Source of the DNA: an uncultured Muribaculaceae bacterium
GTDB lineage: Bacteria > Bacillota_I > Bacilli_A > RF39 > UBA660
Assembly (NCBI GenBank): GCA_964408085.1
Contig: CAYOYB010000003.1
Span: forward strand, 18,806 to 82,805
Direction: 5' to 3'
DNA: 64,000 bases
Shown: positions 18,726-47,117 of the stretch, in pieces
How the letters are laid out: every line of letters starts with the position of its first letter
Position numbering within the stretch: position 1 is the first letter of the stretch
Program-made: the position numbers and the translations under genes
The notes under the pieces: generated by a model
What the model was told of the DNA's origin: nothing
Database searches by the model: none
What the model saw: the letters and a program-made list of their open reading frames with translations, nothing else

Positions 18726-20078
18726 CTACTTTCCGACTAATTCTTTAAAACGTGTTCCTTTTTCTTCAAAATTTTTAAATTGATTATAACTAGACGCAGC
18801 TGGTGATAACAAACAAATCATACCTTTTTTTGTTACTTGTTTTGCAATCGAAACAGCCTGTTCTAAATTTTCAGCTTTATATACATTTTTATTAGTTATT
18901 TGGCTACCTATTTTATAACCTGTTTCTGGCATACAGATAAGATTTTCAACATTACAAGTTTTTAAATATTCGACAAATTCTTCATAATGAATACCTCTAT
19001 CCATACCACCAAAAATTAAGGTATTAACAATACCTAAGCTTTCAATAGCGTTTATAGTAGCATTAGGGATTGTTGCGATTGAGTCATTATAATAAGTAAC
19101 ACCATCATAAATTCCTACTGGTTCTAGACGATGTTCTAGTGGAACAAATTCATTAACACTTTTAGCTGTTTCTTTATTACTAAGACCCAAAATATGAGTT
19201 ACAGCAAACACTGCCATAATATTACTTAAATTATGTCTACCTATCAAATTACGATCATCTAAAACATTATATACTGGTTTATTTTTGCAATATATATAAT
19301 TATCATCACAATAGATTGTATTAAAATCATGTTTGCCAGACGAAAAAGTGTATTTAATTAATTGAGCATCACTATGCTTTTCTTTAACTAAATTATCAAG
19401 TGTACTATTATCTTCACAATATATTGCGTAATCAATTCTACTTTGATATTCAAACATTTTCATCTTACATTCATGATAATGTTCTACACTTCCTGTATGA
19501 TCTAAATGGTCTTCAAAAAGATTTAAAATAATACCAATATGTGGGGAAGTTCTAATAAATTCCAATTGGGCAACCGACATTTCAATAACAACTTTAGTTG
19601 AATCTTTTATGTCATCTAAATGATCAAAGACAGGTGTTCCAATATTACCAAGTAGTAAAGCATCAACATTTTGGTCTTTTAAAACTTTATATAGCATTGA
19701 TGCAGTTGTACTTTTACCTTTTGTTCCTGTTACACCAATAATTTGGTCACGAAAACATTCTAAAACAATTTCAATTTGTGATGTTATATTATTCTCAAAA
19801 CGACTTATATCAACATTTTTTAATGAAAGTCCAGGTGTTTTAATAATAACATCATAATCACGTAAATTATCTAAATAACTATAACCAGCAATAACCTTTG
19901 TTAAAATATCGCCTCTTAAAAATTCATTTTCTGCTACTAAATTTTCATTTTGATCTAAAACGAATAACTTAAAATTAGGATTATGCTTTCTAATATAGTT
20001 GAAGGTTGATTTTCCTTCTTTACCAAATCCTAAAATTGCTACTTTTTTTCCAGTTAAAAAATCCATTACTTTATTCAT
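18726..20078 (-). CDS. murD: UDP-N-acetylmuramoylalanine--D-glutamate ligase (MurD-type)
   Basis: Rossmann N-terminus GKKVAILGFGKEGKST and Mur ligase P-loop GVTGTKGKSTTASM. 450 aa. Confidence 0.85.
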   Translation of the reverse strand: MNKVMDFLTGKKVAILGFGKEGKSTFNYIRKHNPNFKLFVLDQNENLVAENEFLRGDILTKVIAGYSYLDNLRDYDVIIKTPGLSLKNVDISRFENNITSQIEIVLECFRDQIIGVTGTKGKSTTASMLYKVLKDQNVDALLLGNIGTPVFDHLDDIKDSTKVVIEMSVAQLEFIRTSPHIGIILNLFEDHLDHTGSVEHYHECKMKMFEYQSRIDYAIYCEDNSTLDNLVKEKHSDAQLIKYTFSSGKHDFNTIYCDDNYIYCKNKPVYNVLDDRNLIGRHNLSNIMAVFAVTHILGLSNKETAKSVNEFVPLEHRLEPVGIYDGVTYYNDSIATIPNATINAIESLGIVNTLIFGGMDRGIHYEEFVEYLKTCNVENLICMPETGYKIGSQITNKNVYKAENLEQAVSIAKQVTKKGMICLLSPAASSYNQFKNFEEKGTRFKELVGK

Positions 20079-21438
20079 GATTAATTTTCTCCTTAACTAA
20101 TCTTGTATATTTTTCGTCTAAATTATTATTTTCATTATAATAGTTTAGAATACTATCATCGACTGGTTTTAACCCATGTTGATTAAAATAGTATTGCAAT
20201 AAACTAGGTAATTCTTTATGTAAATCATTATATTTTTGAATAACTTTATTAATAGAATATAGAACTTCTTCATAAGTACCAACGCATTCAAATGGTTTAT
20301 TAATACTATCACCTATTAATCCTATAAAATCATTTAATAAACTTTCTTTATTAAGTAAATTTTCACCAAAAATTTCTATTAGTTCTTCTTCACTTAAAAA
20401 TGGACTTAGAATTAAATAAACAAATAGACATTTTGAACATTCCAAACACCAATTCCATGAAGCGCCTTTACTACCAAGATTACAACTTTTAAATATTTTA
20501 TGATATTTCTTTAGTTTAGAAAAAATATAAGCGATTTGTAATTCTTTTAGTGGTCTTAATAAACTAAAATATTTAATACTATTACTAAAGTAAGTAGTAG
20601 TATAATTATAAAAATCTGATTCAAATTCAAAACTTTTTGAATATTGATGATTTATATTTTTATCTTTAACATAACTTTCATTTGCGCTTTCTTCATTAGA
20701 TAAAACAATATTTTTTTTACCAGATAAATAAGCTACTAAATATGATATAAAAGCTATAACTGAACTTATTGGAATATGCCCATTTAAAAAGCCTAAATTA
20801 TTTAATTTAATAATTTTATCTCTATCAATAATTCTTTCAATACAATAAATATCATCATCGCTATATCCCGATACTTTTGCGCAATCAATCATTGGTTTTT
20901 TAGCATTCATTAAAAAGCAAGCATTATTACTTTCATTTTCCAATATATTTAAACTTACACAAGAATCCTTACCGCCGCCAACATTAATTAAATTACCGAC
21001 ACTCTCAAAAGTTCTTTTTTGAAAATTGTCTTCCTTAGTTTCAATAACAAAATCGACTAAATCGTCCATTGTAATATCAATATTATTACGATATAAGAAT
21101 TCTCCTAAACCATTATAATATAATTTTTTAAACCAATTAATTTGGTCTTTATTTAAATAACCACATTTAATAATAATTTTTTTTGCGCAAACACTTTTAT
21201 AGTAACTAATTAATTCAATTACTCCAATATGAAAAACTAGATAATTTAAAAAATCCTCATCAATATCAGTTCTTTTAATAATTGATTTAGGTATTATTAT
21301 CTTTGGACTAAAAGTTTCTAAAGATGGAATACTATAGTTATAAATAATTTCTATATTATCAGGATTATCAATAATTTCATAATTGTCATAAATAATACTT
21401 GGATAAGTCTCTCTTAATTCCCAAAATTTTTCATTCAT
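20071..21438 (-). CDS. PP-loop (SGGxDS-type) ATP pyrophosphatase-superfamily protein of unknown function, translationally coupled to murD
   Basis: Central motif NVGGGKDSCVS (PP-loop) and a C-terminal CxxC pair (WCLECSKC). The 3' end overlaps the murD start by 8 nt. Confidence 0.6.
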   Translation of the reverse strand: MNEKFWELRETYPSIIYDNYEIIDNPDNIEIIYNYSIPSLETFSPKIIIPKSIIKRTDIDEDFLNYLVFHIGVIELISYYKSVCAKKIIIKCGYLNKDQINWFKKLYYNGLGEFLYRNNIDITMDDLVDFVIETKEDNFQKRTFESVGNLINVGGGKDSCVSLNILENESNNACFLMNAKKPMIDCAKVSGYSDDDIYCIERIIDRDKIIKLNNLGFLNGHIPISSVIAFISYLVAYLSGKKNIVLSNEESANESYVKDKNINHQYSKSFEFESDFYNYTTTYFSNSIKYFSLLRPLKELQIAYIFSKLKKYHKIFKSCNLGSKGASWNWCLECSKCLFVYLILSPFLSEEELIEIFGENLLNKESLLNDFIGLIGDSINKPFECVGTYEEVLYSINKVIQKYNDLHKELPSLLQYYFNQHGLKPVDDSILNYYNENNNLDEKYTRLVKEKINHE

Positions 21439-25457: not shown

Positions 25458-26462
25458 TTATTTTTGTACTTCTTGATATACCTCTTTTAATTGTTTTCCA
25501 ATATTTTTCTGATCTCTTTCTATAGCAATTGGATAGGCATTTTTAGCAACACTCTTTAATTTACCACTTAAAAATTTTTTAATTTTTTCCTCAAATTCAT
25601 CTACATTTTTAGCTTTGTAAACATTTTTTCCATCTTCTAACCATCCTTCAAAGATTGGAATATCACGAATGATAGCATTCGTACCACAAGAAATAGCTTC
25701 TATGATAGGAATTCCTTCTGTTTCTTCTAATGTTGGGAATAAATATAAATCACATCCATTTAAAGCTGCTCGAATCATATCTCTTTCTACATAACCAGCA
25801 AATGTTAAATTATCGAGTTTTGTATTTACTGCTTTTCTAACAGGCTTAGTTGCTGCTGCTAGTGGACTATATCCAAACCAAATAAATTTATACTCTGGCA
25901 TTCTTTTTGCTAACTCTACAAAATCAACAATTCCTTTTCTTTCAATATATAAACCAATTCCAATAATTACTTTGTCATCTTTTGTAAACCCATATTTCTT
26001 ACGAAATTCTTCTCCATATTTTTTATTATTTTCAAAAAAATCTAGTTCTACTCCATTAGAAATTGCATAGATTTTTTTATTTTCCAAGCCCTTGTATCCT
26101 TCTAATAATCTTTTAGAATAAGGAGTTGGTGTTACAATAACATCTCCTAATGAATAACATTTGATTAACCACCATTTTATTATTTTGGAAGTTTGTTTTG
26201 CTAAAATGAAGCCATTTTTATAGTCTTCCTCTGTAGAATGAGCATGGTAAACAATCTTCTTTCCCTTTTTCTTAGCACGTTTAGCCATAAAATAGGATTT
26301 AATAAACCATGTATTTATGTGCAAGATATCATAATCTTCTTTAGGATTTAATGTATATTCAATTTTTTCGTCTTCTAATGCCCTCATTTGATGTTGAATA
26401 GCTTTACCTAAGCCACTTTTTCCAATGGTTTTTAATCCTTCTGCATATAATAGTACTTTCAT
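25458..26462 (-). CDS. glycosyltransferase family 4 (GT-B fold; glycolipid/diacylglycerol glycosyltransferase-like)
   Basis: 334 aa. GT4-type C-terminal EETEGIPIIEAISCGTNAII (E-x7-E motif region). Confidence 0.75.
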   Translation of the reverse strand: MKVLLYAEGLKTIGKSGLGKAIQHQMRALEDEKIEYTLNPKEDYDILHINTWFIKSYFMAKRAKKKGKKIVYHAHSTEEDYKNGFILAKQTSKIIKWWLIKCYSLGDVIVTPTPYSKRLLEGYKGLENKKIYAISNGVELDFFENNKKYGEEFRKKYGFTKDDKVIIGIGLYIERKGIVDFVELAKRMPEYKFIWFGYSPLAAATKPVRKAVNTKLDNLTFAGYVERDMIRAALNGCDLYLFPTLEETEGIPIIEAISCGTNAIIRDIPIFEGWLEDGKNVYKAKNVDEFEEKIKKFLSGKLKSVAKNAYPIAIERDQKNIGKQLKEVYQEVQK

Positions 26463-26660: not shown

Positions 26661-27965
26661 TTAATTAAATAAATTTTTATAGTTTTCAATTAAATGAGCA
26701 ATACTAGCACAACTCATAAAACATAGAACTGAATTGTGAAAATTTGCTAATTTTGAAACAGTATCTTCAGTTATTATTTCACCGTTTTTTAATTGTTCTA
26801 AAATCATTTCCGAAGTTACGCCAGGATAATCACTAGCACTCTCTCTATTACAATCAATTGGCGTAATATAAGTTTTATCAGCTAAATTTAAAACATCAAT
26901 AAATTCTTGTTTAAAATCTTTAGTTCTAGAATAAGTATTTGGTTTAAAAATAGCGATAAGTTGTTTATCTGGATATTTTTGACGAGCTGACTGTAATGTA
27001 ACTTTAATTTCAGTTGGATGGTGTGCATAATCATCAATGACGATATTATCACCTACTTGTTCTTCAAAAAATCTTCTTTTAGCATTTTTAAAAGTTAATA
27101 GTAAATCATGAATTGTTTGATAATTAATATTTTCTTCGATTGAGATACAAATACTAGCTAAAGTATTTAAAACCATATGGTGACCAAATAATGGTAAATC
27201 AAAATGTCCATAAAATTCATTATGATAATAAACATCAAAATTACTACCACTTTCTGTTAAATTTATATTAGTTGCATATAAGTCATTATCTTTGTTAAAA
27301 CCATAATAAATAATTTCCTTATCAGTTTTAATTTTTCTTATATTTTCATCATCACCACAAGCTATAATTTTTTTTGTCGATTTATTAGCAAATTCACTAA
27401 ATGTAGCTATTATATCATTAATATCACTATAACATTCAGTATGCTCTAATTCAACATTAGTAATAACTGTATATGCTGGATGATAAGCTAAAAAATGACG
27501 ATTATATTCACATGATTCAATAACAAATAATTTATTTTTTAAATCAGCAAAACCTGTTCCATCACCAATAAAATAATTACATCCAATAGTATTTTTTAAA
27601 ATATGACTAATGAGTGATGATGTAGTAGTTTTTCCATGAGTTCCACAAACAGCGATTGTTGTAAACATCTTAGTTATATCACCTAAAATATCATGATATT
27701 TTTTTATTTTTAAACCTAATTCTTGAACACGTTTAATTTCTCTATGGTCAGGCGCAAAAGCTGCTGAATAAGTAACAATTGTATCACTATCTAAAACAGC
27801 ACTGCAATCATTATATATTTTTATACCACGTTTTTGTAATCCTTCTTCTGTAAATTTATAATCTTTAGCATCATCATAACCAATGACATCATTGCCTAAA
27901 TCATATAATATTTGAGCTAGAGTACTCATTCCTGCACCTTTTATACCAATACAATAATATTTCAT
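26661..27965 (-). CDS. murC: UDP-N-acetylmuramate--L-alanine ligase
   Basis: MKYYCIGIKGAGMSTLAQIL... is the MurC N-terminus; Mur ligase P-loop AVCGTHGKTTTSS. The start at 27965 is preceded by AGAGGTG. The ORF-track start at 27992 adds 9 aa. Confidence 0.9.
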   Translation of the reverse strand: MKYYCIGIKGAGMSTLAQILYDLGNDVIGYDDAKDYKFTEEGLQKRGIKIYNDCSAVLDSDTIVTYSAAFAPDHREIKRVQELGLKIKKYHDILGDITKMFTTIAVCGTHGKTTTSSLISHILKNTIGCNYFIGDGTGFADLKNKLFVIESCEYNRHFLAYHPAYTVITNVELEHTECYSDINDIIATFSEFANKSTKKIIACGDDENIRKIKTDKEIIYYGFNKDNDLYATNINLTESGSNFDVYYHNEFYGHFDLPLFGHHMVLNTLASICISIEENINYQTIHDLLLTFKNAKRRFFEEQVGDNIVIDDYAHHPTEIKVTLQSARQKYPDKQLIAIFKPNTYSRTKDFKQEFIDVLNLADKTYITPIDCNRESASDYPGVTSEMILEQLKNGEIITEDTVSKLANFHNSVLCFMSCASIAHLIENYKNLFN

Positions 27966-28054: not shown

Positions 28055-29191
28055 TTAGTTTTTTTTAGTTTTTATTAATTTATTAAACTCTTCTACTCTT
28101 TCTGACATTGTCATAACAGGAGTTTGTAAAGCTTGTAATTCTGAATCAGTCGTAACACTACATTTAAAGATATCATCAAATATAGCATCACATCTTGAAT
28201 AAGCTGAACTATCAATTCCTATGGTTGAAAATTGTAGACCTAAATCTCCAGTAACACAAATACTTCTTAAATCATGTGCAAAACTGCCATCTATATGATA
28301 ATTATTACCATCACTAAGAATAATTTCACCATCTAAAGTGCATTCGTCTATAGTATCAATAAATTCTGTTGATATTCTTTTTTTATTTTCATGAGTTAAA
28401 TCATCACTTTTTGTCATAACAGAATTATATAAATACAAGCCAGATGCATGAATAGGATTAAATTCAACTACATCAATTCGTCTTTCGCCATCTTTTTCAT
28501 ATTCAAAAACATCAAAACAATAATATTTAGGAAAATTGTTATTTAAACTTTTAATAATACTTTCTACATTATTTAAAATATCAGGTTCAATAGAATGAAG
28601 AATATCTATAGTAAATCGTGAAATATTCATAAGTTGATTATCAACAACAAAACAACGATATTCTCTAGCTCCATATGTATCCCTTATGATATTTACCTTT
28701 TCACTTATAATAAATTCATCATCTAGATGATGCAATAAGGTTCTATAGAAGGCACATTTAGGTTCTTTTAACAAATCAATTGAAATAACATCATGGAAAT
28801 TTTTTTCTTTAGTTTTAAGAAATATTTCATTTCCATAATTATTTTCTATTTTAGAAATTATATCTGGATCTATTAAATCTCTTCCTTTTAATATTTCTAC
28901 TTTTCTATGTGTTTTAACATATTTTGGCCATGACTTAATAATATCAACTTCTTCATTTGTAACAATTATTTCTCCACCATTCTTTATAATTTCATCATTC
29001 ATATCATAAATTTGGTTAGAGCCTGTTCTTGGAAACAATAATTTCCCACTAATATCTACTTTATTTCCATCATAATCAATAAATGTTTTTAGATTAGAAT
29101 CATATAAAATACCATTTTTATTTTTTTTGGCAATAGCCATTTCTTTTTTAGAGTAGTCAAAATTTAATGTATTATCAAAACAATAAAGCAT
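28055..29191 (-). CDS. ATP-grasp-like protein, function unknown
   Basis: C-terminal half YRCFVVDNQLMNISRF...DVVEFNPIHASGLYL resembles the ATP-grasp ExN..G Mg/ATP-binding motif. 378 aa. Confidence 0.4.
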   Translation of the reverse strand: MLYCFDNTLNFDYSKKEMAIAKKNKNGILYDSNLKTFIDYDGNKVDISGKLLFPRTGSNQIYDMNDEIIKNGGEIIVTNEEVDIIKSWPKYVKTHRKVEILKGRDLIDPDIISKIENNYGNEIFLKTKEKNFHDVISIDLLKEPKCAFYRTLLHHLDDEFIISEKVNIIRDTYGAREYRCFVVDNQLMNISRFTIDILHSIEPDILNNVESIIKSLNNNFPKYYCFDVFEYEKDGERRIDVVEFNPIHASGLYLYNSVMTKSDDLTHENKKRISTEFIDTIDECTLDGEIILSDGNNYHIDGSFAHDLRSICVTGDLGLQFSTIGIDSSAYSRCDAIFDDIFKCSVTTDSELQALQTPVMTMSERVEEFNKLIKTKKN

Positions 29192-29326
29192 AATATCGCC
29201 CCCATAATTTTATAACTATATTATATCAAAATATACAAAAATGTAAAATTTTTTAATAATTTATAATTACTAAAAAAATAAAATTTGATTATAATAAAAA
29301 GCCTTTTTTAATTTAGGCTTATAGTA

Positions 29327-29986
29327 TTAATATTCGTTTTTTAAAGCATTATTTAAAAATGAAACTATGTCTATTTCTTTATTATTTAGTTGAATTTTAT
29401 TACAACAAATATTATTTATATATAATTCTCCTTTTAATAAATCATAAGAAACTTCGCACTTTTCATCAATTACTTGCTTATTATCCAATAATTCAATATT
29501 TGGAAAATCAAAATATAAAGCAAGTTCATTTCCAATATTTTCTTTTTCCACTTTATAAAAATGTCCACAATAAATGCATAAATGTTTACTATGTGGTGTA
29601 TAAGCAAACATACCATTATCAGTATGCATACCTCCACAATATGGGCATTTACTTGCTTCTAAAGTTATATTGTTTAATTTAGAAAGCATTAAGCCACCAT
29701 AATCTTTTAAATCAATGATACTGTCTTTTAATTTTAAAATTCCATTAAATTCTTCATTATTGATAAATACTTTTACATTAGTACTATTATTTAAATTTGG
29801 ATAAATAATTTTGATACTTTCTATATTTGAAGGATTCATCTCTACAATAGTTTCATATTTTTCTTTATATTCACAATCACAATAAATTGGTTCATTTAAA
29901 TCAGTTTTAGTTGCTTTCGTTTTGTGTGATAAACACCAATAATCTAACCCACTATTATTTTCAATATACTTAATATTACATTTCAT
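29327..29986 (-). CDS. Cys-rich (zinc-ribbon-like) hypothetical protein
   Basis: Cys pairs CDCEYKEKYE, CPYCGG, CIYCGH. 219 aa. Confidence 0.45.
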   Translation of the reverse strand: MKCNIKYIENNSGLDYWCLSHKTKATKTDLNEPIYCDCEYKEKYETIVEMNPSNIESIKIIYPNLNNSTNVKVFINNEEFNGILKLKDSIIDLKDYGGLMLSKLNNITLEASKCPYCGGMHTDNGMFAYTPHSKHLCIYCGHFYKVEKENIGNELALYFDFPNIELLDNKQVIDEKCEVSYDLLKGELYINNICCNKIQLNNKEIDIVSFLNNALKNEY

Positions 29987-30005
29987 ACTTTTATCTCCCT
30001 ATATA

Positions 30006-30353
30006 TTAGCGTTTACGACCATTATCAACAGCTTTTTCTCCAGTACCAAATTCCCACATTTTTCTTTCAATATCTTCCATACCATCAATTTCAGAATACT
30101 TATTCCCAAAAACAGCTCGTCTTTTAAGTTCAAAATATTCTTCACATGCTTTTAGATCATTATTACTTATTGCCTTTTTGGCAAGCGTCATAGCGCATGC
30201 TCTATATTGTTCTTCATTAATTGGTAAAGGTTTTATTTCAATAGACGTTATTTTTTCATCTATTTTTTCATCAGGTTCATTCCATCCCCTATCTTCCCAT
30301 TTTTCATCTAATTCTCTAGCCAACCTACCTACTTCATTGTCCATTTTATTCAT
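30006..30353 (-). CDS. small charged hypothetical protein
   Basis: 115 aa, very acidic/basic mix. No motif recognised. Confidence 0.4.
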   Translation of the reverse strand: MNKMDNEVGRLARELDEKWEDRGWNEPDEKIDEKITSIEIKPLPINEEQYRACAMTLAKKAISNNDLKACEEYFELKRRAVFGNKYSEIDGMEDIERKMWEFGTGEKAVDNGRKR

Positions 30354-30422
30354 CTCCTTTATAATAAAAAAACAATTTAAATATAATATGTCAATATATT
30401 AATATATTTCACTATTATTTTA

Positions 30423-31190
30423 TTAATGCTTATTCATACACAATATTTTCTTACGAATACCCAACATCATTTTATCAACAATAACAATAGAAGTATCCAT
30501 TTCATTCATATCAGAGGTATCTAATTTTATTAGCTTATCATTTGATATCTTATTTTCTATTAAAGGTAATAAATGTTCAAACCCCTTTTTTAGTTTAGAA
30601 ACTCTTTCAATTGTTGTTTTATTTCTATCTTCTAAATATATTTGATTAATATAATCTCTAAATACAATTATTTCTGGTTTTGCTAACATAACAAATAACA
30701 GGTCAACGTTTATAATATCTTCGTACAATTTTAATAATATTTGTTCATAAGTATTATCATCAATTTTTCCTTCATCATACATCATTTGATACCAAAAGTA
30801 ATTATCAATCACACCTCTATCTTGTATAATGATAGTGGGATGTTGACAAATTTTTCTACTTAATTCTTTTTTAGATACCTCTAATGTTTTATTATTAAAA
30901 TCTAAATTACTCATGCTAGAAATTTCTTGCTTTGACATAGTTTCTTTAATTAACTGAGCAGGCTCTACTGTTTTTTCAATTGTAATACCAGATTGTTTAA
31001 AGAAATTATAAACTCTATCTAAACTACTACTCTTACCAGTTCTTGGTAAACCTGAAAATTCTGTTATAAAAGGTTCAAAGTTTGGAGTTGAATTAATTAA
31101 TTGTTTTAACTCATACTTTTCTTTATGTAATTTTTCTAAACGCTCTAATAACTGTTCGTTGTTTTTAAAATATTTTCTATATTCTTCCAT
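30423..31190 (-). CDS. P-loop nucleoside/nucleotide-kinase-like protein
   Basis: Walker A EFSGLPRTGKSSS near residue 45. Its size (255 aa) and lid-like region resemble dNK/dNMP-kinase-fold proteins. Confidence 0.45.
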   Translation of the reverse strand: MEEYRKYFKNNEQLLERLEKLHKEKYELKQLINSTPNFEPFITEFSGLPRTGKSSSLDRVYNFFKQSGITIEKTVEPAQLIKETMSKQEISSMSNLDFNNKTLEVSKKELSRKICQHPTIIIQDRGVIDNYFWYQMMYDEGKIDDNTYEQILLKLYEDIINVDLLFVMLAKPEIIVFRDYINQIYLEDRNKTTIERVSKLKKGFEHLLPLIENKISNDKLIKLDTSDMNEMDTSIVIVDKMMLGIRKKILCMNKH

Positions 31191-31212
31191 ACTACGATCT
31201 ACCTATTTTCCT

Positions 31213-31671
31213 TTAATCAATCCAACTTGAAACTTGAAAAACAATCATTTCTGGGTTGTTCTTAACAATATATTTAATAATATCATTATCATCATCTATA
31301 ATGATATTAACATTATTTATATCAATATTTTCTTTTAAATATTTACTTTTTAATTCCTTAGAAGAAAAACTATTATTTTCTACATTTTCCTTTGATATAA
31401 ATATAACATTATTTATATCAAAAAAAGGCATATATTTTTTTATCCATTCAATCTTGTCTTTAACAATTATATCATTTTTACAAATAGTTAAAATTTTTAT
31501 TTTAATATCTTTTTCAAGTAAATCTTTAATTCTTTTTATATTACTTTGTAATGGTCTAATTGTATTATAATCAAAATTGCCAATATCATATTCTGCAATT
31601 ACACCATCCATATCGACATATATATCAATATTTTTATTATTATATTTATCTAATGTATCATAAAATTTCAT
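31213..31671 (-). CDS. 5'(3')-deoxyribonucleotidase (NT5C-type HAD hydrolase)
   Basis: HAD motif I IYVDMDGVIAEY (DxDGV), typical of the NT5C family. The start MKFYD at 31671 is preceded by GGGGGAG. Confidence 0.6.
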   Translation of the reverse strand: MKFYDTLDKYNNKNIDIYVDMDGVIAEYDIGNFDYNTIRPLQSNIKRIKDLLEKDIKIKILTICKNDIIVKDKIEWIKKYMPFFDINNVIFISKENVENNSFSSKELKSKYLKENIDINNVNIIIDDDNDIIKYIVKNNPEMIVFQVSSWID

Positions 31672-31805
31672 ATTACTCCCCCAACTCAAATTGACTACTT
31701 ATTATTGTTAGAATGTATTCTTAATTAATAAATAGCTACCTTAATCATTATACTACTTTTTATAAATTTTTTCTACTTTACATTAATTTATATTTGTTTA
31801 TGCAA

Positions 31806-31834
31806 ACAAAAAAAAGCCTTATTTTAGAGGCTTT
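31806..31834 (-). terminator. intrinsic terminator after 31906..32613
   Basis: aagcct-tattttag-aggctt hairpin with an A-run on plus (U-run on minus). Confidence 0.5.
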
Positions 31835-31905
31835 TAGTTTTAAAAGTATGTACAAGAAGAATATTGTTTACAACTTTAAAATCATAATAATTGAAAACTT
31901 TTATT

Positions 31906-33844: not shown

Positions 33845-34543
33845 TTAGTTTTTATAACCACATAAACTTTTTGTAAGTTGTTTAACATTTTCTTCAATTG
33901 AATCGTGATTTAAAGCAATATATTTATTATGGTTATAAAATAATTCAACTAATGATTCTTGATATTTTTCATAATCTATTTCATAATCATTTTCAGTATA
34001 CATTATTATATGATTAAAATGATTTTTACCTATATATAGCAATCCTTCGCTTGGACGATATTGAGGTTCTAATAAGCAGCCATTTTTAGTATGTAATATA
34101 CATGGGTTATCACCATTAGCTATTTTGGAATCAAGTAGTATTGTGCTAATCAATTTTTCATCGGCAAGCCCTCTAGGTCTTAGATATACATTTTTCATAT
34201 TATAAGAAACAGCTAAAACTACAAGACCTGTATTTAATATATTTAGCATATATTCAGGGTTATTTATATCTAAAAAATCATTTGGTGAAAAAGCACAAGG
34301 AAATCGCTTGCAACAAGTCCCACAAGTTTTACATTTAGAAGAAGAGCAAAATGTTTTTTCGATATCTAATTTGGAATAATCACTTGTTATTTCAAAATGA
34401 TCTATATCTGGAGCACGATTATTATGTATATTAACTAATTTGATAAGTTCTTTCTTTTTATGAATTAAATATTGTTCCTCTAATGACATAATTATCACGC
34501 TTTCTAAAACTAAATGTATTCTTTTATTTTTAGTTACATACAT
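33845..34543 (-). CDS. YkgJ-family Cys-cluster (CxxCxxCC) protein
   Basis: CSSSKCKTCGTCCKRFPC matches the YkgJ/PF03692 zinc/iron-chelating motif. The alternative start MSLEEQ at 34489 is possible. Confidence 0.5.
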   Translation of the reverse strand: MYVTKNKRIHLVLESVIIMSLEEQYLIHKKKELIKLVNIHNNRAPDIDHFEITSDYSKLDIEKTFCSSSKCKTCGTCCKRFPCAFSPNDFLDINNPEYMLNILNTGLVVLAVSYNMKNVYLRPRGLADEKLISTILLDSKIANGDNPCILHTKNGCLLEPQYRPSEGLLYIGKNHFNHIIMYTENDYEIDYEKYQESLVELFYNHNKYIALNHDSIEENVKQLTKSLCGYKN

Positions 34544-38591: not shown

Positions 38592-39323
38592 TTATTTTAA
38601 AGATTTACTAGCTAAAGTCAATTCTCTGTCTACTGGTTTATTTTTTGATAAAAAATATAAATACTCATACAATCCATTAGATACTTTATTATCTGAAATA
38701 AGAGAAAATCCTAAATCTTTTTTACACTCATCACAAATAATAGTTTCCAATCTTTTAGTCAATACATTTATTGATACTTCTAAAGGACAATTTCTTAAAA
38801 ACGAAGGATTTATTACTTCACGCATATTTTGATAATTATATGCCCATTCAGTTAGTGGATTTTTTAAAGCATCTTTCCTTTGGCTAAATTCTTTACTATC
38901 TCTTCCTTGTTTCTCAAATGTTTCTTTCATAGAATCTTCATCTAGGTAGGGAACTACTTTTAACAATAGAACTCTATTAGGATAGTCGCTACAAATTTGA
39001 AGATAAGATTCTTCGTTTGATAAATCAATACATGGTATTTTCCCTCTAGCCAAAGAATTATCAATATCTGCTTTTTTAAAAGCATAATGTTCTAGATTAA
39101 GGCGGTTAGTATATTGATAATTCATTTGACAAATATCATCAAATGAAACATCACCTTTTACATCAGATACATTTGCTTCATCAGTTCTAGATTTACGAGT
39201 AGTATATTTAGTTATAATTTCAAGGTTGGGATATTTGGTAAGTAGTTCTCTAGAGACAAACGATTTTCCACTTCCTGTTTCACCAACAATTATTATAATT
39301 AAATCATTTGAATTATTCCCCAT
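38592..39323 (-). CDS. P-loop kinase, guanylate-kinase-like fold (paralog of 15665..16282)
   Basis: Walker A IIVGETGSGKSF. Motif YTTRKSRTDEANVSDVKGDVSFDDI resembles GK TTRxxRxxExxGxDYxF. Confidence 0.55.
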   Translation of the reverse strand: MGNNSNDLIIIIVGETGSGKSFVSRELLTKYPNLEIITKYTTRKSRTDEANVSDVKGDVSFDDICQMNYQYTNRLNLEHYAFKKADIDNSLARGKIPCIDLSNEESYLQICSDYPNRVLLLKVVPYLDEDSMKETFEKQGRDSKEFSQRKDALKNPLTEWAYNYQNMREVINPSFLRNCPLEVSINVLTKRLETIICDECKKDLGFSLISDNKVSNGLYEYLYFLSKNKPVDRELTLASKSLK

Positions 39324-39564
39324 ATGCTTATAAACCTCTCATTCTTTAATTGACCATGTCAATTAACAAGTGTGTTTACTAAATTGACAAAATTCAATTT
39401 AATTCTATAAAAATTATATCATATTTTTTAAACATATTAAAACTCGAACTATCGAAAAATTCAAAAGTTCGAGTTTTCTATCAATCTGGTGCCTTAACGG
39501 GTGACGTTTGGAAATTTTTATTAAGGTTAATTCCAATATTAATTATATCATAAATAATAGTTTT

Positions 39565-40680
39565 TTAAACATCTTTATTAAACAAATTATTTAAAGCAAT
39601 ATACCATTCATTATTTTGACTAAGTGTTGGATAATAATCCTTTATTTTTTTTAAATATGTTAGTAATGATTTTAATCGTAATTTTTTTGAAATGAAATTA
39701 ACAAATTCATCATTTAATGCAATTTCATTATTTATAATATTTTCCAAATATGTGTCAACTAAATAGTTGCAAAATTTATATTCCCCAGAATTATCTATTA
39801 TTTTTTGAAAAATTGCATTAGCAATTTCCTGTTTATTAGAAAAATATCTAATTAAATGCTTAGCACCTAATAAAATTTCATCATCAGTTTTATCTAGATA
39901 AGACATTTTAAAATTTTGTGCATTCAATAAAACCATCTCTTCAATTTTTATTTTTCCTAAAGAACTAAATTTTTGAAAAACCTCTATATATAGGAAGTTA
40001 AATGCTAATAATATTTCTTGTCGGTTAATATTTCCAAAAAGGTCTTTCTCAATTATCATACAAAATTCATTGAACTTATCAGCTTCTAAATTATCTATAA
40101 ATGTTTTAATTATTATACCTTTATTACCTTTAATTTCTTTTCTATTTCTATATAGCATAACTAATAAATCAAACAGTTTATTTTTTGGAATTTTGCTTAA
40201 CAATTCTTCAGAATACTTTTTTGAATTCGGACAAAATGGTCCTTTTATTTCTTCATACCACTCATCAATACTATTAATAGTTTTACTTTCACCTATTTCT
40301 TTTAATATAACTTGATCTAATAAAATTAAAACTGCATCTGTTATATCTTTATTATAATTCTTCTTTGTATGGCTCATTGGATTCCTAAAATATTCAATTA
40401 ATCCTTTAGATAAATCACAAATACCACGATGCATATTTTTATCATTTTCTGTTTCCAATTTATTAATTTTTATTAATGGTTTCTTCTCAGAAAATGCTTT
40501 GTTTATCAAATCCACACCATCATTATCTAACAAGTCAGACTTTTTTCTTATTTCACTACATAAATATAAAATAGCGTCTCTAATTGACTCTGTATAATCT
40601 TCTTTATTGTAGTGTAATTCTATACTCTTTACAAAGTCTTCGTTTTTTAATTTTATCATAAACATACCTCCATTAAACAT
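39565..40680 (-). CDS. HEPN-domain protein (Rx4H motif; Abi/TIGR02391-like), 371 aa
   Basis: LIEYFRNPMSHT contains the HEPN R-x4-H motif in a predicted helical context. The C-terminal 250 aa are unassigned. Confidence 0.45.
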   Translation of the reverse strand: MFNGGMFMIKLKNEDFVKSIELHYNKEDYTESIRDAILYLCSEIRKKSDLLDNDGVDLINKAFSEKKPLIKINKLETENDKNMHRGICDLSKGLIEYFRNPMSHTKKNYNKDITDAVLILLDQVILKEIGESKTINSIDEWYEEIKGPFCPNSKKYSEELLSKIPKNKLFDLLVMLYRNRKEIKGNKGIIIKTFIDNLEADKFNEFCMIIEKDLFGNINRQEILLAFNFLYIEVFQKFSSLGKIKIEEMVLLNAQNFKMSYLDKTDDEILLGAKHLIRYFSNKQEIANAIFQKIIDNSGEYKFCNYLVDTYLENIINNEIALNDEFVNFISKKLRLKSLLTYLKKIKDYYPTLSQNNEWYIALNNLFNKDV

Positions 40681-40711
40681 TCAATCCTTCTGCACTATAA
40701 TTATTTATTAT

Positions 40712-41356
40712 TTAATTTTCTATCAATTCACATTCATAATTAGATAATGAGCATTTAATTGTTATATCAAATCTATCAGTATTTCGAATCTTGGCATTAT
40801 AATATATATTTTGTGTATCTACTTTTTCAATATAATTAATCATAACATATTCTAAAGGATTATTAGATATATTGGAAGTATCAAATTTTAATTCTTTTTT
40901 TTGAAAATTTTCCCTTTCTAATGTATATTCTAACAATAAACCACCTAGACATCTATTAATAAAAAGTTTGTTTTGGTTATTTTTATCATCACTATAGAAA
41001 TAATTATACCTTTCATATTTATATAAATCATCTTGATTACCACAAGATTCAATCTCATCAAGTAAAATATAATCATTATCATTAATTTTATAAAATAAAC
41101 CATTAATTCCACCTTCGTCGTGATGTTCTAAAGTAATATCTGCAATTGCATAGGTTTCTATATTATCATCATAATAAAAAGTATAAGAATTTATATTTTT
41201 ATTTTTTAAATCAAAATGTTCAAAATCGGCATATTGGTCAATTTGTGTTTTATTTCCACAACCACATATACATAATATCAAAAAGAAAAATAAAACTACA
41301 TTTTTTTTCACACTAATCACCAAGAATATTATATCAAATTTATTATAATTTAACAA
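40712..41356 (-). CDS. lipoprotein, function unknown
   Basis: Signal peptide with lipobox LILCICGCGN. 214 aa. Confidence 0.5.
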   Translation of the reverse strand: MLNYNKFDIIFLVISVKKNVVLFFFLILCICGCGNKTQIDQYADFEHFDLKNKNINSYTFYYDDNIETYAIADITLEHHDEGGINGLFYKINDNDYILLDEIESCGNQDDLYKYERYNYFYSDDKNNQNKLFINRCLGGLLLEYTLERENFQKKELKFDTSNISNNPLEYVMINYIEKVDTQNIYYNAKIRNTDRFDITIKCSLSNYECELIEN

Positions 41357-41376
41357 AAAAATAAATATTTTCGTAT

Positions 41377-41697
41377 TTATTTTTTTCCTATTTCTTTCTT
41401 CTTTTTTAAAATATCTTCAATTTTACTTTGCATTTTACTATCATTAATCCATTCAGAATAAAATATAGTATCTGGTGTCATATTAAATATAACTGATAAC
41501 ATAATCGCCATTTCATAACTTAAGTTTCTTTGACCATTAATTATCTGCCATATAAATGGTTTAGAACACCCAATAATTTTAGATAAATCATTATACGTAT
41601 ATTCACTTCTATCTTTTAATGATTTAAGCATTTCACATTTTTTTCTCATATAAATATATCTTCTTTTCCTCCTTTCATATAAGTAGTAATTAGTCAT
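41377..41697 (-). CDS. XRE-family HTH regulator (element repressor candidate)
   Basis: LKSLKDRSEYTYNDLSKIIGCSKPFIWQIINGQRNLS is an HTH_3 pattern. Divergent from 41735..42016. Confidence 0.55.
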   Translation of the reverse strand: MTNYYLYERRKRRYIYMRKKCEMLKSLKDRSEYTYNDLSKIIGCSKPFIWQIINGQRNLSYEMAIMLSVIFNMTPDTIFYSEWINDSKMQSKIEDILKKKKEIGKK

Positions 41698-41734
41698 ATA
41701 TGACGTCGACGGAAGTCAAATAAAAATATATAAT

Positions 41735-42016
41735 TTGGTTATATATGACAAATTTCAAACTAGTTTTATCACAAGAATGGAGGTGCTTGCCGTGGTTAAT
41801 ATAACTAATCAAGATAGAATATACATTGCTCATAATATTCTTAAATTTAGAAAGGCTAAAGGGTTAACTCAAGAACAATTAGCCTTTGAGGCTGGCACAA
41901 CCAATAAATGTATAAGTGATTTAGAACTAGGTAAAAGAAATGTTAAAATTGATACTATTTCTAGAGTTGCTAAAGCACTTGGTGTTAAATTATCAGATTT
42001 AACAAAAATGAATTGA
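41735..42016 (+). CDS. XRE-family HTH regulator (Cro-like)
   Basis: LKFRKAKGLTQEQLAFEAGTTNKCISDLELGKRNVKIDTISRVAKALGVKLSDL is a classic HTH_3. The start may be the internal MEVLAVV. Confidence 0.65.
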   Translation: MVIYDKFQTSFITRMEVLAVVNITNQDRIYIAHNILKFRKAKGLTQEQLAFEAGTTNKCISDLELGKRNVKIDTISRVAKALGVKLSDLTKMN

Positions 42017-42127
42017 CTATTTACTACCTATTTTAATTATAACAGAAAAAAGTTAGTATGTCCCTATATGATACCTTCTTTTTTCTTTTTTTATGAGAAA
42101 ATTATTTATATAAGGTGGTAGTAAGGT

Positions 42128-42433
42128 ATGAAAATAAATAATGCTTTTGACTTATTTGATTTAGTTGATAAAAATTTGCCACAAGATTATAAAATAAATA
42201 TATGTAAAAATATGCGTAAATTTCGTATTGAGAAATATAATCAATTCAAGTCAGAAAATAAAGGAACTGAAAACCCATATAGTGTAGATAATATTGCCGA
42301 ATTATTGGGGATTAGTAAAGTTCATTATAAAAGATTAGAAAATGTTAATGATAAATGCAAACATATAAATTTAGATAAACTGATTATTTTATCGATTATT
42401 TATGAAAAGAAACTTGATGATTTCATAAAATAA
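42128..42433 (+). CDS. HTH-domain protein (XRE-like), 101 aa
   Basis: MRKFRIEKYN...SVDNIAELLGISKVHYKRLEN matches the HTH_3 pattern. Followed by a perfect hairpin aaaggggtattcccctttg at 42505-42523. Confidence 0.45.
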   Translation: MKINNAFDLFDLVDKNLPQDYKINICKNMRKFRIEKYNQFKSENKGTENPYSVDNIAELLGISKVHYKRLENVNDKCKHINLDKLIILSIIYEKKLDDFIK

Positions 42434-42579
42434 TGAATAAATAAAAAGTGTAATATAAATCTTATTAATGGATTTTATTACACTTTTTATATGGATTTGG
42501 GGGTTTCAAAAGGGGTATTCCCCTTTGCACACCGTTATTGGCTTTGCCAATAGCGTAGTGTGTTTACTCTTTTGGTTTT

Positions 42580-43308
42580 TCAAAAAATTGTTTTGATAAC
42601 TTTGTCAGTACCATTTATCAACTCATCAACTTCATCTTTAGTTGGTTCTCTATCTTTATTATGGTCACATAAATTTCTTATATCGCCTAAATGTTGAATA
42701 AATCTCCAATTAATAATGTCATAGATGTTTTCCTGTTTAAATAAATCATTATAATCACTTATACATGGTTCTTTTTTAGACAATTTTAAATTATGGTTTT
42801 TAAGCATAGTGGAAAAATGTTTCTCTAAAATAACTCCACATAGTGCACCAGCACTTCTGAGATAACCCTTTTTCCATAATTTTCTTGATGAAAGCAATTC
42901 ATCATCTAATATTTCAAGTTCCATACTATTTTTTATATTGAATAAAACATTATCAACACTTTCACTTATTGATTTAATAATATTAATTTGATTAATAAAT
43001 TTTATTAAAGCAGTAGCTTTTGGGTCAAAACGCTGCCTACCACATGATACCCCTGTAATATAATCGTATATTGAAAAATTAGAATAAGTTATTCCTTTTC
43101 TATTCAAACACTTATAACACTCAGCAAATTCATCATATCTATTAGGTAATATTTCCTTAACTATAATACTTGCCTTTGTATACCAGATTTGATATTCCTG
43201 AGCAATTATAAGCGCACGTTTATTTTTTACATCATCAGAAAATTTTTTTAATATTTCACTACCATCGTTATATAATTGAACAATTGAATCTTTTATCGCC
43301 TTATTCAT
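42580..43308 (-). CDS. hypothetical protein with C-terminal HEPN-like Rx4H motif
   Basis: QHLGDIRNLCDHNKD (R-x4-H) near the C-terminus, as in C-terminal HEPN/Abi families. 242 aa; sits immediately downstream of the relaxase. Confidence 0.35.
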   Translation of the reverse strand: MNKAIKDSIVQLYNDGSEILKKFSDDVKNKRALIIAQEYQIWYTKASIIVKEILPNRYDEFAECYKCLNRKGITYSNFSIYDYITGVSCGRQRFDPKATALIKFINQINIIKSISESVDNVLFNIKNSMELEILDDELLSSRKLWKKGYLRSAGALCGVILEKHFSTMLKNHNLKLSKKEPCISDYNDLFKQENIYDIINWRFIQHLGDIRNLCDHNKDREPTKDEVDELINGTDKVIKTIF

Positions 43309-43404
43309 TTTTTATTTTACCTCCTTATATAAAAATTAGCATTAAAATATATTTTTTTATACTTTTCAAATCGAAACAATTATAGCACACTTTGACAATC
43401 TTTT

Positions 43405-46463
<3,059 letters not shown>

Positions 46464-46668
46464 TTATCAACTCCTTTTCTATAAAAAAGAAGTCAAAAGA
46501 ATTAGTTCAAATACTACTACCTTTGACTTCTAAAATATAATTATAATTTTGTTTATTTCTAATTTAGGCATAGTAGTACCTCTCTTTCCAATAAAAGACT
46601 AGATACTGCTTGCTTTTATTAAGTTTATATTTTATCATTTATTTTTCTTTTGTCAATAGGGTTAGTTT

Positions 46669-46947
46669 TTATGTGTTTTTATGTGTTTTTATATAATTTT
46701 CTAATTCGTTAAATGGTATAAATTTTTCTAATGTATTGATATAAACATTTTCACATTCATTAAAGAATAAATATGTTATATTACCAATAACTAGTTTATG
46801 AGGCTCAATATAAGCAAGATTAGTTTTAGGAATATTAATTATATTTCCTTTTTGTATTTTTTCTTTAATATTTAGAAACATTAAGATATTTTTTACTCTT
46901 TTCTTTAGTGTTTCTTCTATTTCTAATTTTTCCTTTATTATTTGCAT
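46669..46947 (-). CDS. small hypothetical protein (possible recombination directionality factor)
   Basis: 92-aa ORF between the recombinase and the attR/tRNA end. No motif. Confidence 0.3.
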   Translation of the reverse strand: MQIIKEKLEIEETLKKRVKNILMFLNIKEKIQKGNIINIPKTNLAYIEPHKLVIGNITYLFFNECENVYINTLEKFIPFNELENYIKTHKNT

Positions 46948-46966
46948 AACTAATCAACTCCTCTCA

Positions 46967-46992
46967 AAGCATAATAAAAAAGGTTAACCGAA
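46967..46992 (-). terminator. intrinsic terminator downstream of tRNA-Arg
   Basis: Perfect 9-bp stem aaaggttaa-ccgaaa-ttaaccttt, followed on the minus strand by TTTTTTAT. Confidence 0.55.
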
Positions 46993-47022
46993 ATTAACCT
47001 TTAATATATTTAAAGTCGATTA

Positions 47023-47040
47023 GTTCGACTAATTTCCCTA

Positions 47041-47045
<5 letters not shown>
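47023..47045. repeat. attR-like direct repeat overlapping the tRNA-Arg 3' end
   Basis: gttcgactaatttccctatggtg. The last 5 nt are the tRNA 3' terminus (rc CACCA). Confidence 0.6.

Positions 47046-47117
<72 letters not shown>

What the first reader, a model, noticed from the sequence alone, without database searches (positions are those of the whole stretch)
28055..31689. Five-gene minus-strand operon upstream of murC: NT5C deoxyribonucleotidase - P-loop kinase - small charged protein - Cys-rich zinc-ribbon protein - ATP-grasp
The genes are tightly spaced and co-oriented, with a terminator only upstream of the first gene (31806-31834).

An NT5C-type HAD nucleotidase (DMDGV) next to a dNK/dNMP-kinase-like P-loop protein could be a substrate cycle for nucleotide salvage, or a nucleotide-pool-manipulating module. 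The latter would parallel nucleotide-depletion defences and phage nucleotide-metabolism cassettes.

The ATP-grasp enzyme (EFNPIHASG) and zinc-ribbon protein have no housekeeping counterpart I can name. The block lies at the start of the accessory region that ends at tRNA-Arg.
Basis: inference. Interest (0 to 1): 0.55.

Follow-up and report, generated by a model that had tools for sequence, protein, structure and literature searches.

The report
Three unrelated gene units, not one operon
The five co-oriented genes upstream of murC are real, but they are three separately inherited units (a phosphatase-kinase pair, a small-protein/zinc-protein pair, and a lone ATP-grasp ligase) that lie side by side only in this genome, so there is no five-gene nucleotide or defence system.

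Summary
They are not one conserved operon.

1. HAD phosphatase + P-loop kinase. This is the only multi-gene module that recurs beyond close relatives. The two genes are adjacent in 17 of 17 other loci, each time at a different housekeeping location, and never with the other three genes. The kinase model (pLDDT 94) matches deoxynucleoside and thymidylate kinases. The phosphatase has the NT5C motif DMDGVIAEY but lacks the NT5C cap domain.

2. Small protein + Cys-rich protein. These form a lineage-specific pair in front of murC. The pair has its own conserved 5' region and a terminator that is conserved in position.

3. ATP-grasp. It is a catalytically intact R2K.2 (DUF4343) family member with its own extended -10 promoter. 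Two close relatives lack it, and 25 other genomes carry it alone with no recurrent neighbour.

There are no PADLOC hits and no phage homologues, apart from a roughly 50-aa zinc-ribbon module.

Verdict: an ordinary mosaic in a variable region. The phosphatase-kinase cassette most likely acts on (deoxy)nucleotides. Interest is low to moderate.

The parts
31812..31835 (-). Intrinsic-terminator-like hairpin that ends the upstream gene (orf235)
   Evidence: 8-bp stem, U-tract; -8.4 kcal/mol.
31747..31775 (-). Promoter-like site ahead of the HAD gene
   Evidence: TAGAAA-17-TATAAT, 10/12. This is a consensus match only.
31213..31671 (-). HAD-superfamily phosphatase, 152 aa, NT5C-like motif I (DMDGVIAEY) with a minimal cap. 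First gene of the conserved two-gene cassette.
   Evidence: Start revised to the ATG at 31671.
30423..31190 (-). P-loop kinase, 255 aa, deoxynucleoside-kinase/thymidylate-kinase fold with a 35-aa N-terminal helical extension. Second gene of the cassette.
   Evidence: pLDDT 94; dCK/dGK/dNK/TMPK, E about 2e-7.
30006..30344 (-). Small charged protein, 112 aa, no known family. Paired with the Cys-rich gene in close relatives only.
   Evidence: Start and conserved 5' region.
29327..29986 (-). Cys-rich protein, 219 aa, with two predicted Zn sites (C3/C18/H21/C36/C38 and C114/C117/C137/C140). Belongs to an uncharacterised zinc-ribbon family.
   Evidence: (pLDDT 88.5).
29291..29320 (-). Terminator-like hairpin plus U-tract after the Cys-rich gene
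   Evidence: Conserved in position in L002, L052, L050 and L051, with changed stem sequences.
29220..29247 (-). Promoter of the ATP-grasp gene (TTTACA-16-TG-TATAAT)
   Evidence: 11/12, best in region. Conserved in L052, and its extended -10 element also in L002.
28055..29191 (-). R2K-clade ATP-grasp (R2K.2/DUF4343 type), 378 aa, with all catalytic residues intact. A stand-alone gene.
   Evidence: R2K_2 37.7 bits against a cut-off of 26.2; K126, K130, E177, R179, D227, E243, N245 invariant.
26661..27965 (-). murC (context only; has its own extended -10 promoter)

Best explanation
The block is a mosaic of three independently inherited units in a variable stretch between murC and an integrated mobile element at tRNA-Arg.

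Unit A (31671-30423) is a two-gene cassette that probably has translationally coupled genes. It encodes a small HAD phosphatase related to 5'(3')-deoxyribonucleotidases and a P-loop kinase with the deoxynucleoside-kinase/thymidylate-kinase fold. The adjacency, the folds and the motifs are shown. The function is inferred: I think the cassette most likely acts on free (deoxy)nucleoside monophosphates or nucleosides. The kinase would push a nucleoside or dNMP towards the triphosphate pool, and the phosphatase would pull dNMPs back. That would make it an accessory salvage and pool-balancing pair, like the mammalian dNK/cdN-mdN substrate cycles.

Unit B (30344-29327) is a lineage-specific pair of a small charged protein and a two-zinc protein. 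The pair normally sits directly before murC, has its own conserved 5' region and ends at a terminator. Its function is unknown. The zinc-ribbon module suggests nucleic-acid or protein binding.

Unit C (29247-28055) is a stand-alone R2K.2 ATP-grasp gene with its own promoter. From family knowledge it is predicted to be an ATP-dependent amide or peptide ligase that modifies a protein. Its target is not encoded next to it.

In this genome units A and B may be co-transcribed by read-through. That arrangement is not conserved.
For: Mosaic structure:
- 26 genome loci carry ATP-grasp homologues. Only the closest relative, L002, also has small+CysRich, and none has HAD or kinase.
- L052 has small+CysRich+ATP-grasp+murC without HAD/kinase. 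L050 and L051 have small+CysRich+murC with neither ATP-grasp nor HAD/kinase.
- More distant CysRich homologues stand alone in other contexts, for example between tyrS and htpG.
- 102 neighbours of ATP-grasp homologues fall in 107 Pfam families, none found more than four times.

The cassette:
- HAD lies immediately upstream of the kinase in 14 of 14 loci, L035-L048, and again in L057-L059.
- The locations differ each time: after mutS, near nusB/xseA, near dUTPase, and between the glycolysis and S10 operons.

Transcription:
- A conserved terminator and a promoter lie between CysRich and the ATP-grasp gene.
- The 5' region of the small gene is conserved whatever gene lies upstream of it.

Families:
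- Kinase: AF2 pLDDT 94. Foldseek top 50 are dCK/dGK/dAK/dNK/TMPK plus the cytidine kinase AbmG. TMPK is the best PDB profile hit. Pfam AAA_28 matches 31/31 members and Thymidylate_kin 19/31. GLPRTGKS, E76-P77 and D124-R125 are invariant, as are R178 and R189.
- HAD: NT5C matches 9/9 members weakly. The PDB profile search gave only cdN/mdN 5'(3')-deoxyribonucleotidases, apart from one designed protein at E=2.
- ATP-grasp: R2K_2 scores above the gathering threshold, and all R2K catalytic residues are invariant (PMC4431377).
Against: - No biochemical data exist for any of the five families.
- The HAD scores below Pfam's NT5C threshold. It also lacks the roughly 50-residue helical cap that binds the nucleotide in cdN/mdN. 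Capless HADs often act on macromolecules.
- The kinase's substrate class (nucleoside, NMP or something else) cannot be told from fold alone. Weak hits to AAA_28 (the NadR ribosylnicotinamide-kinase type) and to KTI12 leave other substrates open.
- No terminator was found between the kinase and the small gene, so A and B may well be one transcript here.
- Co-occurrence elsewhere in a genome, as opposed to adjacency, could not be tested.
Confidence: 0.75

Rival explanations
1. All five genes form one functional system that manipulates nucleotide pools, for example an anti-phage defence.
For: The genes are co-oriented and contiguous in this genome. The region is variable and lies next to a mobile element. 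The published, untested proposal for R2K.2 enzymes is a role in phage-host conflict (PMC4431377).
Against: - The five families are never found together elsewhere.
- There is an internal conserved terminator and promoter.
- No PADLOC hit for any of the five proteins.
- No phage or viral-contig homologues of the kinase, HAD or ATP-grasp.
- The neighbours of each unit elsewhere are housekeeping genes.
Confidence: 0.04
2. The HAD-kinase cassette is a split polynucleotide kinase-phosphatase (PNKP-like). The kinase would phosphorylate 5'-OH ends and the capless HAD would remove 3'-phosphates, healing broken RNA or DNA ends.
For: - The HAD has almost no cap, as do T4 Pnk and other macromolecule-directed HADs.
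- PHROG 'polynucleotide kinase' phrog_415 aligns to nearly the whole HAD (E=1.2e-4).
- One family member hits Pfam HAD_PNKP at 5e-5.
- hhalign against the T4 Pnk phosphatase domain aligns motif I plus the short loop (E=3e-4, probability 39%).
- The gene order HAD then kinase matches mammalian PNKP (my own knowledge).
- DNA-repair and RNA-processing genes recur among the neighbours (mutS, mutL, xseA, ruvB, uvrC, RNase J/PH).
Against: - The kinase's 50 best structural matches are all small-molecule kinases (dNK and TMPK enzymes, plus the cytidine kinase AbmG), none a PNK.
- hhalign against T4 Pnk aligns only the P-loop (probability 22%).
- The invariant E-P and D-R motifs, with invariant Arg178 and Arg189 in the lid region, are typical of dNK/TMPK enzymes.
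- Motif I DMDGV[IL]AE[Y] is the NT5C signature rather than the DxDGT of PNKPs.
Confidence: 0.15
3. Small protein + Cys-rich protein + ATP-grasp are a three-gene module. The ATP-grasp would ligate amino acids onto the small or Cys-rich protein, and the HAD-kinase pair would be a chance neighbour.
For: The three genes are adjacent in the same order before murC in the window, L002 and L052. ATP-grasp ligases of this assemblage often modify proteins (PMC4431377).
Against: - L050 and L051 keep small+CysRich+murC without the ATP-grasp.
- 24 other ATP-grasp loci have no CysRich or small homologue.
- CysRich loci L028-L034 have no ATP-grasp.
- A terminator and a separate promoter lie between CysRich and the ATP-grasp gene.
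- The three genomes that share the arrangement are close relatives (murC 91-92% identical), so they amount to one evolutionary event.
Confidence: 0.08
4. The ATP-grasp acts in cell-wall precursor synthesis, like the ATP-grasp enzyme Ddl, because it sits next to murC.
For: It is adjacent to murC in the window, L002 and L052, and independently in L024, where the two genes are divergent and the ATP-grasp is 31% identical. A few envelope genes (FtsW/RodA, Glycos_transf_4, polysaccharide deacetylase) occur among the neighbours.
Against: - There are only two independent cases among about 25.
- No envelope family occurs more than twice among the 102 neighbours.
- R2K enzymes lack the usual small-substrate loop and are predicted to be protein ligases (PMC4431377).
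- Close relatives with the same murC lack the gene.
Confidence: 0.05

Closest known systems
R2K.2 (DUF4343, Pfam PF18299) ATP-grasp family of the R2K clade (Burroughs, Zhang & Aravind 2015, PMC4431377)
   Same: Pfam R2K_2 scores above threshold. The strand-2 lysine plus a second lysine four residues later (K126, K130), ExR (E177/R179), D227 and ExN (E243/N245) are all invariant. The distribution is sporadic, the gene stands alone, and no target is linked to it, as the paper describes.
   Different: This subfamily is confined to low-GC gut Bacilli-type MAGs. It carries a conserved C-terminal region of about 120 aa with no family assignment. It is not linked to R2K.3, GNAT or ADP-ribosylglycohydrolase genes as in the published neighbourhoods, and no phage copies were found.
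5'(3')-deoxyribonucleotidases cdN/mdN (Pfam NT5C, PF06941; PDB 2i7d, 1mh9, 3bwv)
   Same: The extended motif I is DMDGV[IL]A[DE][FY]. HAD motifs II-IV are present (S/T62, K94, D126-D128). These enzymes are the only natural solved structures found by the family profile.
   Different: It scores below the Pfam threshold. About 6-11 residues stand where cdN has a helical cap of about 52 residues. The protein is 152 aa, against 180-200 aa.
Deoxynucleoside kinases (dCK, dGK, Dm-dNK, Mycoplasma dAK) and thymidylate kinases
   Same: Same fold (Foldseek E about 2e-7, TM 0.55-0.62). It has a P-loop with Arg (GLPRTGKS, as in type I TMPKs, from my own knowledge), E-P after strand 2, D-R after strand 3, and arginines in the lid region.
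   Different: Only 14-18% identity, and the window protein hits no Pfam dNK or Thymidylate_kin model. It has an extra conserved 35-aa N-terminal helix. It is always encoded directly after a HAD phosphatase.
Mammalian dNK / 5'-nucleotidase substrate cycles (TK2 or dCK with mdN or cdN)
   Same: The same two enzyme superfamilies act in opposite directions on (d)NMPs.
   Different: Here the two are encoded as one bacterial bicistronic cassette. A cycle is inferred, not shown.
T4 Pnk / mammalian PNKP (bifunctional 5'-kinase / 3'-phosphatase)
   Same: A HAD phosphatase with little or no cap is combined with a P-loop kinase. The HAD shows weak profile similarity to this group.
   Different: The two are separate polypeptides. 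The kinase resembles dNK/TMPK enzymes rather than PNK, and motif I is of the NT5C type.

Membership tests
R2K-clade ATP-grasp (R2K.2/DUF4343) | Match to Pfam R2K_2 above the gathering score | tested here: met
   37.7 bits against a cut-off of 26.2. R2K_3 (30.9 against 26.3) and D123 (28.8 against 24) also pass.
R2K-clade ATP-grasp (R2K.2/DUF4343) | Conserved Lys in RAGNYA strand 2 plus a second Lys/Arg just downstream (the 'two K') | tested here: met
   K126 and K130 (FLKTKEKNF) are invariant in 26 sequences. Definition taken from PMC4431377.
R2K-clade ATP-grasp (R2K.2/DUF4343) | ExR in the first strand, an acidic residue in strand 4, and ExN at the end of the kinase-like domain | tested here: met
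   E177, R179, D227, E243 and N245 are invariant.
R2K-clade ATP-grasp (R2K.2/DUF4343) | ATP-dependent amide/peptide ligase activity on a protein | not testable with these tools
   This is only predicted for the family, including in the literature.
NT5C 5'(3')-deoxyribonucleotidase | Match to Pfam NT5C above the gathering score | tested here: not met
   19.8-20 bits against a cut-off of 24.8. Nine of nine family members hit, but all weakly (best E=1.1e-4).
NT5C 5'(3')-deoxyribonucleotidase | HAD motifs I-IV with the NT5C-type motif I DMDGVxA[DE][FY] | tested here: met
   D20, D22, G23, V24, A26, E27, Y28, K94 and D126-128 are invariant, and position 62 is S or T.
NT5C 5'(3')-deoxyribonucleotidase | Helical cap domain that encloses the nucleotide | tested here: not met
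   Profile positions 31 to 38 of the HAD family alignment (A4) correspond to cdN residues 25 to 78, so about 45 cap residues are absent.
Deoxynucleoside kinase / thymidylate kinase superfamily | NMP-kinase-like fold with P-loop, E/D-P after strand 2, D/E-R after strand 3, and a lid | tested here: met
   Foldseek top 50 are dCK/dGK/dAK/dNK/TMPK plus the cytidine kinase AbmG.
Deoxynucleoside kinase / thymidylate kinase superfamily | Sequence-model membership (Pfam dNK or Thymidylate_kin) | tested here: not met
   The window protein gives only AAA_28 at E=0.0034. Thymidylate_kin is hit weakly by 19/31 relatives (best 1.9e-5).
Polynucleotide kinase-phosphatase (PNKP/T4 Pnk) | PNK-type kinase domain and DxDGT HAD phosphatase | tested here: inconclusive
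   HAD: phrog_415 at 1.2e-4, HAD_PNKP in 1/9 members, hhalign probability 39%. Kinase: only the P-loop aligns, probability 22%, and there is no PNK among the top structural hits.
Known anti-phage defence systems (PADLOC-DB) | Any component matching a defence-system model | tested here: not met
   No hits for the nine proteins scanned, including all five.
Single five-gene operon / conserved gene cluster | Conserved co-occurrence and no internal terminator or promoter | tested here: not met
   Synteny. Internal terminator and promoter.

The most novel reading that the evidence does not exclude
The HAD-kinase cassette could be a previously unrecognised, horizontally shuffled two-gene module of gut Bacilli with a function other than ordinary salvage. 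Examples would be a capless NT5C-like phosphatase and a dNK-fold kinase that together re-route 3'-nucleotides or a modified or damaged nucleotide, or a split end-healing enzyme for nucleic acids. Separately, the Cys-rich protein belongs to an undescribed zinc-ribbon repeat family with no Pfam model and no structural relatives (634 cluster representatives at E<=0.001).
Probability: 0.15. Interest if true: 0.55.

Novelty: new member of a known kind. Interest (0 to 1): 0.25.

Why it matters
It matters mainly as a caution. Contiguity and co-orientation in one AT-rich genome suggested a five-gene system, and comparison with about 55 related loci dissolves it.

Three modest, testable items remain:
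1. A phosphatase-kinase cassette that recurred in all 17 other loci examined, in uncultured low-GC gut Bacilli. Its substrates could be found with two purified proteins.
2. More stand-alone R2K.2 ATP-grasp genes, a family whose predicted protein-ligase activity has never been shown.
3. An unnamed zinc-ribbon repeat family.

None of these opens a long-standing question.

Tried and rejected
- PADLOC and NCBIfam scans of the proteins gave nothing useful.
- Viral-contig scans with the ATP-grasp and kinase profiles found nothing.
- tblastn of the kinase, ATP-grasp and HAD against 50,697 phage records found nothing.
- Single-sequence PDB searches for the kinase and HAD were uninformative.
- Foldseek of the Cys-rich model against PDB and BFVD gave no significant fold match, only a zinc-ribbon piece of about 50 aa.
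- Contexts of longer Cys-rich relatives (P0231, P0233) were uninformative.
- The C-terminal extension of some ATP-grasp homologues has no Pfam match.
- A literature search for a bacterial nucleotidase/deoxynucleoside-kinase pair found nothing relevant.
- I considered and rejected the idea that the kinase is the lineage's essential thymidylate kinase. It sits at different places in different genomes, is absent from this locus in close relatives, and is frameshifted in L057-L059.

Full report
**What is in the sequence**

The window has about 24% G+C throughout. Its proteins match metagenome-assembled genomes labelled Bacilli, Tenericutes or Lactobacillales from gut samples.

Three starts need revising:
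- The HAD starts at the ATG at 31671 (152 aa). Every homologue begins MKFYD.
- The small protein starts at the ATG at 30344 (112 aa).
- murC starts at 27965.

The intergenic gaps are 22, 78, 19 and 135 nt.

The terminator upstream of the first gene is real (31835-31812). A comparable hairpin plus U-tract follows the Cys-rich gene (29320-29291; -7.2 against -8.4 kcal/mol). After it comes the strongest promoter-like site in the 8 kb scanned (29247-29220, 11/12 with an extended -10).

**Family assignments**

The ATP-grasp passes Pfam's thresholds for R2K_2, R2K_3 and D123, with R2K_2 the best. In an alignment of 26 homologues, the residues that define the R2K clade in Burroughs et al. 2015 are invariant (PMC4431377). 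These are the strand-2 Lys plus a second Lys (K126, K130), ExR (E177/R179), D227 and ExN (E243/N245). A profile search of the PDB finds only human CDC123, and weakly. So it is an intact R2K.2/DUF4343-type enzyme. The family is predicted, but never shown, to be a protein-peptide ligase.

The kinase gives only a weak AAA_28 hit by sequence. Its AlphaFold model, built from 31 homologues, is confident (pLDDT 94, pTM 0.90).
- The 50 best PDB matches are deoxycytidine, deoxyguanosine and deoxyadenosine kinases, the Drosophila multisubstrate dNK, thymidylate kinases and the cytidine kinase AbmG (E about 2e-7 to 4e-6, TM 0.5-0.6).
- The family profile finds Plasmodium thymidylate kinase best in the PDB (E=0.008).
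- 19 of 31 members weakly hit Pfam Thymidylate_kin.
- The invariant residues fit that superfamily: GLPRTGKS, E76-P77 after strand 2, D124-R125 after strand 3, and R178/R189 in the lid region.

The HAD has invariant motifs I-IV. All nine members scanned hit Pfam NT5C, but below threshold. The family profile retrieves only cytosolic and mitochondrial 5'(3')-deoxyribonucleotidases from the PDB, apart from one designed protein at E=2, and all weakly. That alignment shows that the helical cap of about 50 residues in cdN is replaced here by a short, invariant loop (AEYDIGNFDY).

The small protein has no match in any library.

The Cys-rich protein has no Pfam, PHROG, PADLOC or NCBIfam match. Its model is confident (pLDDT 88.5) but has no significant fold match in PDB or BFVD. 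Its invariant Cys and His residues define two zinc sites.
- A profile search of 1.84 billion representatives shows that its central module is widespread, with 634 proteins at E<=0.001. The module is CxxC-x3-HxDxG...HxxHxCxxCG...NIGN.
- The module occurs two or three times in proteins of about 350 aa.
- It also occurs as single-module mini-proteins, including one in a phage contig.
- One protein carries it fused to a MUG113/T5orf172 domain.

**Do the five genes belong together?**

No.

ATP-grasp:
- A scan of one genome per species found 26 loci with ATP-grasp homologues.
- Only L002, the closest relative (murC 92% identical), also carries the small and Cys-rich genes. None carries the HAD or the kinase.
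- The 102 genes flanking these homologues belong to 107 Pfam families, and none occurs more than four times.

Cys-rich protein:
- More distant homologues stand alone, for example between tyrS and htpG.
- L052 has small + CysRich + ATP-grasp + murC.
- L050 and L051 have small + CysRich + murC with no ATP-grasp.
- None of these has the HAD or kinase nearby.

HAD and kinase:
- The HAD gene lies 5-25 nt upstream of the kinase gene in all 14 loci recovered through kinase homologues.
- It does so again in L057-L059.
- The chromosomal place differs each time: after mutS, next to nusB/xseA, near dUTPase, and between the glycolytic and S10 ribosomal operons.
- In L057-L059 the kinase is frameshifted, so it is dispensable.

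Intergenic DNA:
- The terminator after the Cys-rich gene is conserved in position in all five related genomes, with different stem sequences.
- The ATP-grasp promoter is conserved in L052, and its extended -10 element (TGATATAAT) also in L002; both genomes carry the gene.
- The 5' region of the small gene, including TTGACA, is conserved whether the upstream gene is the kinase, a short-chain dehydrogenase or a divergent gene.

**What it most likely is**

Three units have been juxtaposed in a variable stretch. That stretch is bounded by murC on one side. On the other side lies an integrated mobilizable element (serine recombinase, Mob_Pre relaxase) next to tRNA-Arg. The relative L050 lacks that element.

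Only the phosphatase-kinase cassette recurs as a multi-gene module beyond close relatives. I think it most likely works on free (deoxy)nucleotides, as an accessory salvage or pool-balancing pair of opposing activities.

The main rival is a split PNKP-like end-healing enzyme. The missing cap and weak PNKP-type HAD similarities favour it. The kinase's clear dNK/TMPK affinity and the NT5C-type motif I count against it.

Nothing supports a defence role. There were no PADLOC hits, no phage or viral homologues of the kinase, HAD or ATP-grasp, and the neighbours are housekeeping genes.

**Comparison with what is known, and verdict**

- The ATP-grasp is a new member of the R2K.2 family, which has been described only computationally.
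- The kinase and the phosphatase are divergent members of the dNK/TMPK and NT5C-like HAD groups. Neither passes the curated sequence thresholds, and the HAD fails the cap criterion. They work like these families but should not be filed as members.
- The Cys-rich protein belongs to an unnamed zinc-ribbon family.

Interest is low to moderate.

Noticed in passing
window 38592-47117: A large serine recombinase (44658-46460), a Mob_Pre relaxase (43405-44661), an HTH_3 regulator (41377-41697), a Hypoth_Ymh protein (39565-40680) and a P-loop protein (38592-39323) lie next to tRNA-Arg(tct) at 47041-47117. Together they look like an integrated mobilizable element. The close relative L050 lacks it; there the Germane gene is only about 6 kb from the small+CysRich pair.
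   Followed up: partly
window 25458-26462: A 334-aa ORF lies between murC and the tmcAL-like (HIGH_NTase1) gene only in this genome; I took it for a glycosyltransferase from its sequence but did not scan it against any family library. In L002, L050 and L051 murC is followed directly by the tmcAL-like gene. L052 has a different insertion there (AAA_14/DUF4143).
   Followed up: partly
window 29327-29986; P0231, P0233, P0238, P0339; L049 9992-10198: The central zinc-ribbon module of the Cys-rich protein defines a wider unnamed family (634 cluster representatives). It occurs two or three times in proteins of about 350 aa, and as 60-100-aa single-module proteins, including one on a high-GC phage contig. 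One protein carries it fused to a MUG113/T5orf172 domain. There is no Pfam model and no structural relative.
   Followed up: partly
P0075, P0078 (ATP-grasp homologues); L022 and L027: Some ATP-grasp homologues carry a conserved C-terminal extension of about 150 aa with no Pfam match. Two Muribaculaceae contigs each carry two paralogous R2K ATP-grasp genes, 2-6 kb apart (about 6 kb in L022, about 2.2 kb in L027).
   Followed up: partly
L057 8001-8764, L058, L059: In one lineage the kinase of the HAD-kinase cassette is split into ORFs of 198 and 62 aa. The split is seen in several independent assemblies, which suggests a genuine frameshift or pseudogene.
   Followed up: no
window 33845-34543: The 232-aa ORF contains a CKTCGTCCKRFPC motif (CxxCxxCC-like, putative metal-binding) but has no Pfam hit at E<=0.1. 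Its homologue in L050 is disrupted into two pieces.
   Followed up: no
L024 245-3066: A distant ATP-grasp homologue (31% identity) is divergently adjacent to a murC homologue. This is the second independent murC adjacency among about 25 loci, and is probably chance.
   Followed up: partly
L050 15949-18659; window 18726-21438: The relative L050 encodes a MurL-type epimerase next to a MurD-like ligase, which suggests the MurD2/MurL route for adding D-Glu. The window has ORFs of the same sizes at the matching position. I did not scan them.
   Followed up: no
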